Assembly: GCA_964016885.1 (NCBI GenBank)
Contig: OZ024745.1
Span: 128,402,001-128,466,000 of the forward strand
DNA from: Eledone cirrhosa
Lineage: Eukaryota
Length of the DNA: 64,000 bases
Direction of reading: 5' to 3'
The position numbers and the translations under genes are program-made. Below are positions 9,201 to 47,219 of the stretch, piece after piece. Below the pieces are notes generated by a model. It was not told the DNA's origin and ran no database searches. It saw nothing but the letters and a program-made list of their open reading frames with translations. Within the stretch, counting starts at the first letter, position 1, and each line of letters begins with the position of its first letter.

Positions 9201-9264
9201 TATATATATATATATATAGTAATAATAATAAATTTGAAGACTAAAATCCAATATATATATATAT

Positions 9265-9638
9265 AAAGTTAAATAAAAGTCAAATGATTAAAATTTAGCT
9301 TCGTTTATTACTGCTATATATATTTCAGTGACAGCCATCTTTGGCTGTGACCTCTTCAGGCAGTTTGAATTAGTATGGTATAGACAAGTACATATGTTGT
9401 TTAGGTGTATAATATTGTCAATACTCTGATATGCCCAGTTCCTTGTTGGGTTGTTAATTCACTGAGGAACTGGAGTCATATATAGCAGTATAGCAGTAAT
9501 AAACGAAGCTAAATTTTAATCATTTGACTTTTATTTAACTTTATTTTACACTACTCCGGAGTAACCAAACCAACCTGCGCACTTCGTCGAGTGCTCCAGC
9601 CTGCATACTGAGGTGTTGGTATACAACCAACATAAACT

Positions 9639-9640: not shown

Positions 9641-9736
<96 letters not shown>

Positions 9737-9737
<1 letters not shown>

Positions 9738-9930
9738 ACGAAGGAAATGTGGTAAGGGACCAGATGGACCATAACGCACCAAAGTACTCAATACTTAGGG
9801 TAGTAGAGTGGGTAATAGGAACAAGTATGACCCCGACGGCAGACCTCAAGCCATTTCGACGGCTAATTCTGGACTAAATAAGAATTTTTAGCCTGGTAAA
9901 TAGATAGCCGAACTTCTCAGGGGGTAATTC
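9737..9930 (-). mobile_element. Family D hammerhead module (longest copy)
   Basis: ~150 bp conserved tail shared with 11812-11958, 37530-37622, 38868-39050 and 45793-45930; all end at (TA)n. Confidence 0.75.
9830..9925 (-). ncRNA. Type I hammerhead with long stem II and GUC site (family D); core has one mismatch
   Basis: Minus: acccc CTGAGAA gttcggcta...tagccgtc GAAA tggc-ttgaggtct-gccg TC ggggt. Confidence 0.65.
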
Positions 9931-10439
9931 CATATATGGGAAGATAGTAATTGTCAAAAGGATTGGTCAAAAGTTTGTTGTAAAGACAGATGATTCTATC
10001 ATGGCATTTAGTGGGAGGTAGGGGTAGCTGAACTTGCCAGTAGAACAAAGAGGGCGTGGGGGAAACCAGTCAAGCGTTGAAAGTAAAATCTATACAGCAG
10101 ATTCTAAGGATTGTGTATAGAAGGTCGAAAAAAAGTGGAGAAGGGAAGGGGGGGGGTGAAAGAATAGGTAAATCGAAAGGGAGTAAACAAATAAGCCATT
10201 ATAAAAATGAGGAAATAAATTTAAAAAAAACAATTTCTGGTTACTACTCCATCCCCACAATCACCAAATCTCTCATTGGTATTGCTAAGCTATAGAAAAG
10301 TTTAATAGGTGGAGAAAAATGCTAAATACAGGATTGCAGTGAAAGAGTTTTATAAAACCATCTTTACAGGGGTCTAACACCACTGTTATAGTTAGTAGTA
10401 ATCAGCCAATGCTATCTTACAATGACAGGTTAATAAGTT

Positions 10440-11018: not shown

Positions 11019-11138
11019 CCTGAGCTGAAATACGATTCTCGCTAATTTATATTTGTGTATATATATATATATATATATATAGGAAAAAGTATGACCTCGA
11101 CGGCAGAGCTCAAGCCGTTTCGACGGCTATATCCAGCG

Positions 11139-11570
11139 GACTTCGAAACAGATGCCGTCTACCCAATTACAATCACAAGGGCTTGTAACGATACTTGCCC
11201 ACATTTCCACGCGGTGGGATCGAACCCCTGACCTTAATGATTCCGTATCAAACTCAGCCATGCAGAGAGTCCATCATTTCTAGTAGTGACCACTTAAATG
11301 CTATATGGAAGTGTCGTAAATATGATTAAAATTACAAAACAACATATTTGTTTGGGAAGTCAGGTATTGCAAATCGTTCGGTATTCGATATTAACAATGT
11401 GAGGTTAGAATCCATATTGAAAAATTCATATCACGTGACAGATTCAGGTTTCCATGAAAATTATTGAAACAAAGGGAGAGAAGCACGTCATTTGCGATGA
11501 TTTCGTCTCTGAATAAATTCGTAAGGTGATCATTTTCCATAACTGCACAGGAAGAAAGAAGTACTGAATT
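11139..11570 (+). repeat. ~435 bp direct duplicate of 13843-14277
   Basis: Near-identical from gacttcgaaacagatgccg to gaagtactgaattc. Confidence 0.9.
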
Positions 11571-11577
11571 CGGAATA

Positions 11578-11800
11578 TTTTTTTTTTTTTATGCTTTAAG
11601 AATATAAATATTTGTATTGAGAGAGAAATATTATTTATAAACTAAGTAAAAGTGACGTCCGAATGTGTATCCTCCATTACCAACTAACTTACCCTCCGCC
11701 TTTGGGTCCTGGCCAACAAGATGGATAATGCATTTCCCCCGGAGTACAGCGAGGGAGACGCGCTGAAACCGTCACTCCACCCCACGGAGCTCGCATCTGC
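11578..11800 (-). mobile_element. CRE-like (RLE) non-LTR retrotransposon 3' end with poly(A)
   Basis: Minus reads VE*RFQRVSLAVLRG/GNALSIL (one frameshift), matching the E.W..QR.S.A..RGNA..IL C-terminus; 3' UTR ends in an A-run (T-run at ~11578-11590). Confidence 0.7.
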
Positions 11801-11957
11801 GGGCGGAAAACTCCAGAAATAGTGTAGAAATAGCCGTCGAAACGGCTTGAGCTCTGTCGTCGGGGTCATACTTTTTCCTATTTCCCACTCTACTACCCTA
11901 AGTATTGAGTACTCTGGTGCGTTGTGGTCCATCCGGTTCCTTACCACAATTCCTTTG

Positions 11958-12023
<66 letters not shown>

Positions 12024-12397: not shown

Positions 12398-13310
12398 TGT
12401 TGTTGTTAGTGGTGGTGGTGGTGGTGGTGGTGGTGGTGGTGGTGGTGTTGGTGGTGGTGGTATTGTGGTGATGGTGGGTGTAGTGGTGGTGGTGGTGATG
12501 GAGGTGGTGGTGGTGGTTGTCGTGGTGGTGGTAGTGTGGTGGTATGGTGGTATTGTGGTGATGGTGGGTGTAGTGGTGGTGGTGGTGTTGGAGGTGGTGG
12601 TGGCGGTAGTGTGGTGGTATGATGGTATGGTGGTGATGGTGGGTGTAGTGATGGTGGTGATGATGGAGGTGGTGGTGGCGGAAGTTTGGTGGTATTGTAT
12701 GGTGGTATTGTGGTGATGGTGGGTGTAGTGGTGATGGTGATGATGGTGGTGATGGTGGGTGTAGTGGTGGTGGTGGTGATGGAGGTGGTGGTGGTGGTAG
12801 TGTGGTGGTATGGCGGTATTGTGGTGATGGTGGGTGTAGTGGTGGTGGTGGTGTTGGAGGTGGTAGTGGCGGTAGTGTGGTGGTATTGTGGTATGGTGGT
12901 GATGGTAGGTGTAGTGGTGGTGGTAGTGGTGGTGGTGATGGAGGTGGTGGTGGTTGTCGTGGTGGTGGTAGTGTGGTGGTATGGTGGTATTGTGGTGATG
13001 GTGGATGTAGTGGTGGTAGTGGTGGTGATGGAGGCGGTGGTGGTTGTCGTGGTGTCGTTGTTGTTGTTGGTGTTGTTGGTGTCGTTGTTGATGTTGTCGT
13101 TGGTGTTGTTATTCTTGGTGGTGGTGTTGTCGTTGATGTTGGTGGTGCCGGTAGTGTTGTTGTTCTTCTTGGTGGTGGCGGTGTTGCCGTTGTTGTTGTT
13201 GTCGTTGTTGGTGTTGTCGTTGATGTTGTCGTCGTTGGAGTTGTTGTTGTTGGTGGTGTTGGTGTTGTCGTTGGTGTTATTGTTGTTGGTGTTGTTGGTG
13301 TTGTTTTATT
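12398..13310. repeat. Degenerate (GGT)/(GTT) trinucleotide array with higher-order units
   Basis: Repeated gtattgtggtgatggtgggtgtagtgg blocks. Confidence 0.9.
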
Positions 13311-13689: not shown

Positions 13690-13965
13690 TCGATCAATGA
13701 AACAATCTGCTCGTGAAATTAGCGTGAAGTGATTACCATACAGACATGAATACACTTAACTCTTTTCTTATGGAGATTCAGCGTGTTACCGTGTGTGAAG
13801 AAGCTGGCTCTTTAAATTATAGATATATAGGTCCATCTAGCCGACTTCGAAACAGATGCCGTCTACCCAATTACAATCACAAGGTCTTGTAACGACACTT
13901 GCCTACATTTCCACGCGGTGGGATCGAACCTCCGACCTTAATGATTCCGTATCAAACTCAGCCAT
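13690..13965 (-). mobile_element. Two adjacent degenerate SINE remnants
   Basis: gaaattagcgtg...ggagattcagcgtg block plus ccacgcggtgggatcgaacc (B-box reverse complement); a similar pair lies at ~55410-55700. Confidence 0.55.
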
Positions 13966-15195
13966 GCAGAGAGTCCATCATTTCTAGTAGTGACCACTTA
14001 AATGCTATATGGAAGTGTCGTAAATATGATTAAAATTACAAAACAACATATTTGTTTGGGAAGTCAGGTATTACAAAACGTTCGGTATTCGATATTAACA
14101 ATGTGAGGGTTAGAATCCATATTGAAAAATTCATATCACGTGACAGATTCAGGTTTCCATGAAAATTATTGAAACAAAGGGAGAGAAGCACGTCATTTGC
14201 GATGATTTCGTCTCTGAATAAATTCGTAGGGTGATCATTTTCCATAACTGCACAGGAAGAAAGAAGTACTGAATTCTACAGAATCTAAAGAAAGGATTCT
14301 AGAGAAAGGAGGAAAAGGAAGGAAGGGAATGGAAAAGAGAAGAAAGAGAAAGAAAAGGAAGAAGAAGAGGCAGAAGAGAGGAGATGTATGCAGCTTCGAA
14401 TAGATGTATAGAAAAGGGCATTCCGATCCGCTGCTATCGACAGAAGAGGATCGCGTACGTCATAGAAAAATACACGTACTACTAAATATCCCTCTGTCAC
14501 GTGATCGCCTACGTAAAAATGTGGGGGAATATTTTGAGTGCGAAAGTTTTCGTAGAATGTACTTGCCGTCCTATGACACAAGTATAGTACTGTATGATAA
14601 CATGTATATGTGTCTAAGTATTTATTTGATGTCGATATGGTACAGTTACTCGACAAATAGTCATTAGCGCAACACTAGATGATTTAATTTTCCTTTAGTG
14701 ATTCAAAGATGTATATTTGTTCAAGTGGTTCCAGTTGCGTTCTTTTGACTCTCGGAAGGGGGTTTTGACATTTGCTGTTGGAAATAAAAACGAGCCAACG
14801 AGAAACACGTCCTTTGTAACAGTTTTATGTGAGTTGGATGCATCAGTGTAAACATTATGTGGTCTATTACAAAAACCGACTTCTAATTTTAGATTAAGTT
14901 AATTTGCAGAATCTTTAGTGGCAAATGTTTTGAAGAAAAGAATAGATTATAAAGTCCACTCTTTCAGCCATAAACATTGTCGTGGGGTCTTATACAAACA
15001 AGATAGCATGCATATTTAGAAGAAGCTAGACCACCCGTGACCCGTCGCGTCACGTTTGCTTAAAAATATTTTTTTTTTAATGTTGGTCACTTAAAAATGA
15101 CTTTTAAATAATTAAAATACACACAATATGCATGTAATGTAAAATGAAATTGGAAGGCCAATATATATTTTGTGTGTGTGTGTGTGCGCGCGTGC

Positions 15196-37434: not shown

Positions 37435-37529
37435 AATATATATGTGTAAAAATACATATATAAGCATATATAATCATGTATAACATGTATAACATGTATA
37501 AGCATATATATATATATATATATATATAT

Positions 37530-37618
37530 AACGAAGGAAATGTGGTAAGGAACCAGGTGGACCATAACGCACCAAAGTACTTAATACTTAGGGTAGTAGA
37601 GTGGGTAATAGGAACGTT

Positions 37619-37622
<4 letters not shown>
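37530..37622 (-). mobile_element. Family D tail with micro-inversion
   Basis: Conserved tail ending in the hairpin taggaacgttccta, between (TA)n tracts. Confidence 0.75.
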
Positions 37623-38495: not shown

Positions 38496-38747
38496 CATAC
38501 ATATATATGCATATATATATACTTTCTATACCTTTCATTTATAAATATATATATATATTGAACCTTACAGAATCACGTGCCTCTTTGAGGTCAAATACCA
38601 ACCCTACTAGCATCTACAAACTGACCAATGAGAATCAAGACTATTCCTGGTGACAACATCAAAGTATTCCTAACAAGCTCATATGTCCCAAGGCTCTGAT
38701 GCCATCAACACTATACACACAGAGCTGGCATATCTAAGAACTGACTA

Positions 38748-38803
38748 ACTGCCTGATGAGGTCATAGCCATTCAATGGCTATCATTGAAATATATATAGC
38801 AGT
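38748..38803 (+). ncRNA. Minimal type I hammerhead ribozyme (family B-related)
   Basis: actgc CTGATGA ggtcatagccat-tca-atggctatcatt GAAA tatata TA gcagt, followed by aataaa. Confidence 0.82.
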
Positions 38804-38867
38804 AAATAAAGGATTATGAGTTCATGCAATTGACTTATGTTTCGTCACTATATATATATATATATAA

Positions 38868-39170
<303 letters not shown>

Positions 39171-45777: not shown

Positions 45778-45792
45778 AATATATATATATAT

Positions 45793-45930
45793 AACGAAGG
45801 AGGTGTGGTACAGAACCAGATGGACCATAACGCACCAGAGTACTCAATACTTAGGGTAGTAGAGTGGGTAATAGGGAAATGTTTAACCCCGACGGCAGAG
45901 CTCAAGCCGTTTCGACGGCTATTGTGGACT
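45793..45930 (-). mobile_element. Family D tail with the 3' half of the hammerhead
   Basis: ccccgacggcagagctcaagccgtttcgacggcta; between (TA)n tracts. Confidence 0.78.
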
Positions 45931-45975
45931 ATATATATATATATATACATACATACAAACACACACACACACACA

Positions 45976-47019: not shown

Positions 47020-47219
47020 NNNNNNNNNNNNNNNNNNNNNNNNNNNNNNNNNNNNNNNNNNNNNNNNNNNNNNNNNNNNNNNNNNNNNNNNNNNNNNNNN
47101 NNNNNNNNNNNNNNNNNNNNNNNNNNNNNNNNNNNNNNNNNNNNNNNNNNNNNNNNNNNNNNNNNNNNNNNNNNNNNNNNNNNNNNNNNNNNNNNNNNNN
47201 NNNNNNNNNNNNNNNNNNN
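47020..47219. other. Assembly gap (200 N)
   Basis: N run. Confidence 1.

What the first reader, a model, noticed from the sequence alone, without database searches (positions are those of the whole stretch)
11081..11958. Hammerhead element appears to have captured neighbouring DNA and a LINE 3' end
Between an inverted family D arm (11081-11130) and the family D tail (11812-11958) lie a 435-bp copy of 13843-14277 and a polyadenylated CRE-like 3' end. The whole unit is bounded by (TA)n. The left junction atccagcggacttcg resembles the donor atctagccgacttcg (microhomology). Other family D copies (38868-39050, 37530-37622) show the same arm/tail layout with little or no insert. Inference: template switching during integration copies local or foreign sequence, making these elements agents of local duplication.
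Basis: partly seen in the sequence, partly recalled or inferred. Interest (0 to 1): 0.75.

Follow-up and report, generated by a model that had tools for sequence, protein, structure and literature searches.

The report
Penelope insertion seals in neighbouring DNA
A two-armed insertion of a Penelope-type jumping gene holds a 441-base copy of DNA from 1.9 kb away plus a T-run-led piece of an old LINE, likely picked up by template switching while its two cDNA ends were being joined; 17 sister insertions hold similar nearby copies, so this is a recurrent but minor source of short local duplications.

Summary
Observation confirmed with corrections. Family D is not a free hammerhead element: it is the pLTR/tail end of a (TA)n-targeting, Hydra-type Penelope-like retrotransposon, and this copy carries only the 3' half of the ribozyme. 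Between arm (11081-11130) and tail (11812-11960) lie a 441-bp copy of 13835-14276 (97.5%; only two places in the assembly), 6 filler bases, T13, 55 unique bases and 170 bp of an old CRE-like LINE end whose source is in neither the assembly nor the reads of one sample. It is rare: 1 of 98 unselected arms. One sister insertion shows a jump onto an A-tailed RNA. The quoted 15-nt 'microhomology' is only the start of the copy. Best reading: serial template switching during end joining; host repair versus element RT is unresolved. Analogues are in print for L1 and R2, and this scan found local capture at Penelope junctions before in two other genomes.

The parts
11058..11080 (.). left (TA)n target
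   Evidence: sequence
11081..11130 (-). inverted arm: short copy of the Penelope pLTR starting at the inner initiation site
   Evidence: 2 differences in 50 to the tail; 2,803 exact TA+arm starts genome-wide, control 0
11131..11571 (+). captured direct copy of 13835-14276; its first 6 nt (ATCCAG) also resemble the element's own sense start
   Evidence: 97.5% over 442 columns; ATCC/GTCC/TCC occur between arm and tail in other copies (table 5c)
11572..11577 (.). 6-nt junction filler
11578..11590 (-). A13 on the minus strand (T13 in the direction of the arm's cDNA); likely copied poly(A) tail
   Evidence: runs of 12 or more are rare, 44 in 980 kb
11591..11645 (-). 55-nt unique AT-rich sequence beyond the CRE-like end; no second copy found
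11646..11815 (-). 3' end of an old CRE-like LINE (label recalled from the peptide FQRVSLAVLRGN; stop and frameshift present)
   Evidence: best other copy 84% (86% over a shorter piece)
11812..11824 (+). 4-nt CRE/tail overlap and a short re-primed repeat of the tail start
11825..11881 (+). sense pLTR part with the 3' half of a type I hammerhead (GAAA 11839-11842, GUC ending 11861), core absent
11882..11960 (+). Penelope 'tail' extension, present on one side only
11959..12023 (.). right (TA)n target
13835..14276 (+). donor of the copy, 1,877 bp from the element's right edge
14276..14380 (-). splice-acceptor-like context at the donor end: long pyrimidine tract and three AGs, the copy ending at the third
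9718..10185 (-). longer, older family copy that includes the hammerhead core region
38868..39051 (-). family copy, arm plus tail, no insert
37529..37622 (-). family copy, truncated tail with a 7-nt arm
45792..45934 (-). family copy, tail only

Best explanation
This is one insertion of a Hydra-type Penelope-like retrotransposon into (TA)n whose centre holds a copy of DNA from 1.9 kb away and a T13-led piece of an old LINE, likely captured by two successive template switches before the two cDNA ends were joined. Inferred steps: both target strands prime reverse transcription at two neighbouring internal sites near the 5' end of the element RNA; both cDNAs run off that 5' end after about 60 and 140 nt; usually they are joined at once into a 195-bp arm+tail unit. 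Here the arm's end copied 441 nt of nearby sequence (more likely DNA than RNA, about 60:40), then switched to a second template, most likely the poly(A) end of a transcript that read through an old CRE-like copy, and was sealed to the tail cDNA through a 4-nt overlap. Shown: anatomy, local donors, recurrence, rarity. Inferred: order of steps, RNA nature of the second piece, and the enzyme.
For: Family identity: RT and C-terminal GIY-YIG frames in L062/L128 with the CxCX5C linker, DKT read from L227, Hydra features as in PMC8557442 section 11. One event: 79 of 98 unselected arms have a tail within 450 bp; 75 of 98 arms end in a 10-nt zone, 21 at one base. Recurrence: 15 of 28 picked inserts have a donor within 5 kb, with 0 of 126 control loci matching as well; the same holds for L106 and this locus; L263 adds one (no cross-locus control). 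Donors lie 282-2,186 bp away (median 785), 11 left and 7 right, 8 direct and 10 inverted. L223 and L245 are two-piece local captures. RNA jumps occur in the family: 8 of 28 inserts are pieces of the element's own body, 7 without a local copy, and L262 has 2 filler nt + T13 + about 900 nt of antisense element sequence between tail and arm, the A run absent from other copies. The T13 here has the same polarity and starts 6 nt from the junction; chance about 2 in 10,000 per junction. Arm/tail (2 of 50) and copy/donor (11 of 442) divergences fit one age.
Against: The source of the CRE piece and its 55-nt flank is in neither the assembly nor the read contigs, so an extra loss must be assumed. T runs at this family's junctions are mostly slippage: 9 of 13 loci in the T-run search, and L263. 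The copy ends at an AG behind a long pyrimidine tract, which this model leaves as coincidence. No empty allele was seen. Candidates were picked by eye from 88 rows, and inserts over 400 nt could not be searched, so there is no second composite of this size. Donor distances exceed typical polymerase theta templating (about 85% within 10 bp, PMC5068794 passages), so the host pathway is not identified.
Confidence: 0.62

Rival explanations
1. All of the insert was copied from DNA by host break repair; the CRE piece with its flank and A run lay in the target region or next to the donor on the template allele and was lost in a target-site or later deletion.
For: Explains at once why no second copy exists; 18 local captures from both sides and strands, two of them in two pieces; short re-primed repeats at many junctions; L1 insertions with templated genomic DNA near the site (PMC11702581 passages).
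Against: A junction 6 nt from a run of 12 or more T is rare by chance; no CRE remnant near the donor in 154 kb, the nearest other piece lies about 91 kb to the right; L262 is a precedent for a jump onto an A-tailed RNA.
Confidence: 0.18
2. The whole 681-bp insert is a cDNA of one spliced minus-strand transcript of this locus: an upstream exon (CRE piece, flank, A13, TATTCCG) joined to an exon that starts at 14275.
For: The copy stops exactly at TGTAG|AATTC behind a 29-of-30 pyrimidine window; 0.03% of positions meet this after-the-fact criterion, about 1% over 34 capture ends; one template would explain both pieces and their shared polarity.
Against: It is the third AG after the tract; the upstream exon is missing from the assembly and reads; no Pfam match above cut-off in 125 window frames; an AG at one end is seen in 3 of the 16 other captures examined (by eye); L223's two pieces join by microhomology, not GT-AG; the A13 becomes the coincidence.
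Confidence: 0.15
3. The duplication and LINE piece predate the element; arm and tail are separate insertions that happen to flank them, or the LINE inserted later.
For: The family is dense (six copies in this window); some arms have no tail nearby (19 of 98 lacked one within 450 bp).
Against: No (TA)n at either inner junction; insert ends abut the element at the family's usual end zone; 17 other loci show the same pattern; the CRE family is old (nearest-neighbour identity 84-90%) while the tail is up to 99% identical to sisters.
Confidence: 0.05

Closest known systems
Hydra clade of C-terminal-endonuclease Penelope-like elements (Craig et al. 2021, PMC8557442; passages and section 11 read)
   Same: (TA)n target, inverted 5'-truncated copy, one-sided tail, CxCX5C linker, DKT, hammerhead in the pLTR
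   Different: Tail is about 78 nt rather than 30-40; core is U3-A8; the passages read describe no captured local DNA
Sequences captured between Penelope pLTRs in Adineta vaga (Arkhipova et al. 2013, PMC3846280; passages read)
   Same: Unrelated host sequence framed by pLTRs; template jumps proposed
   Different: There read as trans-mobilisation of genes to new sites; here short copies of DNA 0.3-2.2 kb from the insertion sit at the head-to-head junction
Internal initiation by PAc Penelope RT (Frangieh et al. 2024, PMC11167929; main text and start of methods read)
   Same: Both strands nicked and extended; two adjacent internal start sites define the tail
   Different: In vitro; does not address end joining or capture
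Non-canonical L1 insertions (PMC11702581, passages) and R2 'snap-back' and 'extra template' junctions (PMC11331408, passages)
   Same: cDNA 3' ends copy nearby DNA or a second RNA before joining; two-RNA insertions
   Different: Other retroelement classes, in cultured cells; here fixed copies with two run-off cDNA ends
Polymerase theta templated insertions (PMC5068794, passages)
   Same: Reiterated priming, 0-2 nt overlaps, flank-derived inserts in both orientations
   Different: Those are mostly under 25 bp and primed within 10 bp; these are 34-442 bp from 282-2,186 bp away

Membership tests
Penelope-like elements, EN+ | RT with C-terminal GIY-YIG endonuclease | tested here: met
   Frames in L062, L128, L153 upstream of the pLTR; RT motifs read by eye; Pfam GIY-YIG only weak, E 0.069, below cut-off, and no RT family hit
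Penelope-like elements, EN+ | Inverted 5'-truncated copy and one-sided tail | tested here: met
   79 of 98 arms have a tail within 450 bp
Hydra clade | CxCX5C linker; CxxC and CxH in EN; no CCHH | tested here: met
   CNCPDRSTC, CNLC, CKH in L062, by eye against section 11
Hydra clade | DKT and RWK motifs | tested here: inconclusive
   DKT read by eye in L227; RLRW seen, next residue R in L232
Hydra clade | Insertion into (TA)n | tested here: met
   2,803 exact TA+arm starts (TA is part of the pattern); tails end in TA in the loci shown
Hydra clade | Placement in an RT phylogeny; length under 3 kb | not tested
   No tree built; no full-length copy delimited
Type I hammerhead ribozyme (this locus) | Complete core and three stems | tested here: not met
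   Only stem II 3' strand, GAAA, stem III and GUC are present; Rfam 0 hits
Type I hammerhead ribozyme (family) | Complete core and three stems | tested here: met
   L002 folds as a three-way junction; U3-A8 core in 13 of 17 copies, a variant named in PMC4209133 (passage); the older window copy does not fold so; cleavage untested
CRE clade LINE | RT plus restriction-like endonuclease, clade placement | tested here: inconclusive
   Only the C-terminal peptide was seen; the label is recalled, no call confirmed it
Retrocopy of a polyadenylated RNA (second piece) | Non-genomic A tail, polyadenylation signal, source locus without the tail | tested here: inconclusive
   A13 in the right polarity; no AATAAA, an AATACA 23 nt upstream (variant signal, recalled); source absent

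The most novel reading that the evidence does not exclude
The two short cDNAs of a Penelope insertion are 'strong-stop' products that run off a capped 5' end, and the element's own RT then jumps onto whatever is within a 0.3-2 kb loop of the target, including nascent and spliced local RNA; this insert would then be a fossil of a spliced local transcript with an exonised LINE, and such junctions a record of past local transcription.
Probability: 0.15. Interest if true: 0.72.

Novelty: new variant of a known kind. Interest (0 to 1): 0.46.

Why it matters
How Penelope-like elements finish integration is an open question. These junctions give countable footprints: a fixed run-off point, jumps onto the element's own A-tailed RNA, and copies of DNA from 0.3-2.2 kb away with none closer than about 280 bp. 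That makes RT jumping versus host repair testable in the existing in vitro system. For the genome the effect is small: about 1 insertion in 100, median about 94 bp, no gene copied here.

Tried and rejected
Free-standing hammerhead/retrozyme element: rejected, the family has a coding body and this copy lacks the core. Assembly artefact: rejected for the copy/CRE junction. Fresh CRE RNA: rejected, best other copy 84-86% and family old. CRE remnant beside the donor: none in 154 kb. Host gene in the window: no Pfam hit above cut-off in 125 of 192 frames scanned. No RNA holder listed, so expression was not examined. Empty site: no relatives are held for this genome and the three runs are one sample. 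Inserts over 400 nt could not be searched. Short-arm pattern: 14 rows, 2 fetched, one element-derived and one 46-nt insert with no local donor. T-run search: 9 of 13 loci are slippage, 2 (L259, L268) have no partner within 3 kb. The general repeat finder was swamped by microsatellites. Not-in-print check: searches listed no paper on local DNA capture at Penelope junctions; the library lacks most subscription papers, and no supplements were read (those of PMC8557442 and PMC11702581 may bear on this). bioRxiv 10.64898/2026.07.22.740005 and PMC13282606 (passages) had nothing on capture.

Full report
Observation. The layout is real. The arm 11081-11130 is the reverse complement of 11832-11881 with 2 differences in 50. 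11131-11571 copies 13835-14276 at 97.5%, 11 differences in 442 columns, and a genome search found it at these two places only (40 of 961 candidates scored). Then come 6 filler bases, T13 (11578-11590), 55 unique bases, a CRE-like piece on the minus strand (11646-11815) and the tail, which begins with a short re-primed repeat. (TA)n lies on both sides. A 155-nt contig crosses the copy/T-run/CRE junction with no difference in 3 of 3 runs of one sample; this may be the assembled sample.

What family D is. [quoted passage not shown] CxCX5C, CxxC/CxH, DKT and the (TA)n target match the Hydra clade as described in PMC8557442 section 11; no tree was built. The complete family ribozyme is a type I hammerhead with a U3-A8 core in 13 of 17 copies, and L002 folds as a three-way junction; that variant is named in PMC4209133 (passage). 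This locus has only the 3' half, and Rfam finds nothing. An exact TA+arm start occurs 2,803 times. I fetched 98 of the first 100 places listed (two dropped as lying within 500 bp of another). 79 of 98 have a tail within 450 bp; their junctions are 33 overlapping, 15 blunt, 20 with 1-9 nt, 10 with 10-29 nt and 1 with more. 75 of 98 arms end in a 10-nt zone, 21 at the A of TTAGTC, an initiator-like motif (recalled). With two-strand internal initiation shown in vitro for another Penelope (PMC11167929), the simplest reading is two short cDNAs that run off the RNA 5' end and are joined.

A pattern for arm end, 40-400 nt, tail start gave 88 rows. I picked the 28 loci whose first 80 letters looked foreign; the other rows looked element-derived and were not tested for local donors. 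Of 28: 15 have a donor within 5 kb, 2 are simple repeats and undecidable, 8 are pieces of the element's own body, 1 is a mariner-like piece (label recalled) with no local donor, 2 are reiterated element ends. For each of the 15, for L106 (the 1 of 98 unselected case) and for this locus, 0 of 126 other loci matched as well. L263 adds one more, without that control. The 18 donors lie 282-2,186 bp from the element (median 785; here 1,877), 11 left and 7 right, 8 direct and 10 inverted, 34-442 bp long, median about 94. None lies between 2.2 kb and the roughly 4.5-kb search edge. Local capture is therefore a real, recurrent and rare outcome. This locus is the longest seen, but inserts over 400 nt could not be searched.

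Junctions. The quoted 15-mer is the start of the copy with 2 mismatches; the arm and donor share nothing across the junction. ATCCAG resembles the element's own sense start, seen between arm and tail in other copies, and matches the donor's ATCTAG at 5 of 6, so a small re-priming overlap is plausible. On the right, CRE-like copies match through 11815, a 4-nt overlap with the tail.

The second piece. The peptide resembles CRE C-termini (recalled) and has a stop and a frameshift. The best other copy is 84% (86% over a shorter stretch, 40 of 951 scored); 28 copies have nearest neighbours at 84-90%, and 1 of 28 has an A run within 90 nt. Two flank patterns with 2 and 3 mismatches hit only this locus; read contigs hold no second copy beyond short chance pieces; 154 kb around hold one unrelated 82% piece. 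The source is absent from this individual. For an RNA origin: the T13 has cDNA polarity, starts 6 nt from the junction, and such runs are rare (44 in 980 kb); L262 shows 2 filler nt + T13 + antisense element sequence inside one arm/tail unit, with the A run absent from other copies. Against: 9 of 13 T-run loci are slippage. For a spliced template: the copy ends at an AG behind a long pyrimidine tract, 0.03% per position by an after-the-fact criterion; against, it is the third AG, no exon source or gene was found, and L223's two pieces join by microhomology. A source lost in a target-site deletion would explain the absence but neither signature.

Comparison. Capture between pLTRs is reported in PMC3846280 (passages); templated genomic DNA and two-RNA inserts for L1 in PMC11702581 (passages); 'snap-back' and 'extra template' junctions for R2 in PMC11331408 (passages). 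Polymerase theta inserts are much shorter and closer (PMC5068794, passages). Seven searches listed no paper on local capture at Penelope junctions. Earlier notes of this scan report it in two other genomes, and twin priming and RNA capture in this one; these are unchecked notes, and the counts above are my own.

Verdict. A single Hydra-type Penelope insertion with a composite captured centre: about 0.95 for capture during the event, 0.62 for the local-copy-then-poly(A)-RNA path. New variant of a known kind; interest 0.46.

Noticed in passing
family pLTR, window 11826-11830 equivalent; genome-wide: cDNA ends pile up at the A of TTAGTC; the next base is C in 50, G in 44 and T in 6 of the first 100 of 3,999 non-A matches (hand count); most G cases continue in element sequence, and among junctions that do not, C 12, A 9, T 4, G 3. 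Suggests a capped Pol II start copied by RT; not proven.
   Followed up: partly
L286/L262, G000:C3:292974296: Tail cDNA, 2 filler nt, T13, about 900 nt of antisense element RNA from the ORF back into the pLTR, then the arm: a jump onto an A-tailed truncated element transcript.
   Followed up: yes
L227, L231, L262; L238, L244; L219, L230: Captured pieces of the element's own body end at three recurrent places, hinting at preferred RNA 3' ends.
   Followed up: no
18 capture loci: No donor closer than about 280 bp or farther than 2.2 kb; a rough exponential model gave about 1% for the near gap (17 cases, before L263 at 282 bp was added).
   Followed up: partly
window 9251-9544 and 38747-38865: A second hammerhead-bearing family with a canonical CTGATGA/CTGAAGA-type core; at 9263-9318 / 9489-9544 it has a perfect 56-bp inverted arm.
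   Followed up: no
L078, L105, L107, L109 and others: Many long palindromic duplications bounded by (TA)n near but outside family D, perhaps insertions of other Penelope families.
   Followed up: no
window 12409-13305: About 900 bp of degenerate GTG/GTT repeats with open Thr/Pro-rich frames on the minus strand between the element and the donor; no evidence of a gene.
   Followed up: no
L226 (G000:C3:83454391) and L281 (G000:C4:111886954): Non-local foreign inserts between arm and tail: a mariner-like C-terminal piece (label recalled) and 46 nt of unknown origin.
   Followed up: partly
window 47020-47219: 200 N, the only masked or gap stretch in the window.
   Followed up: no
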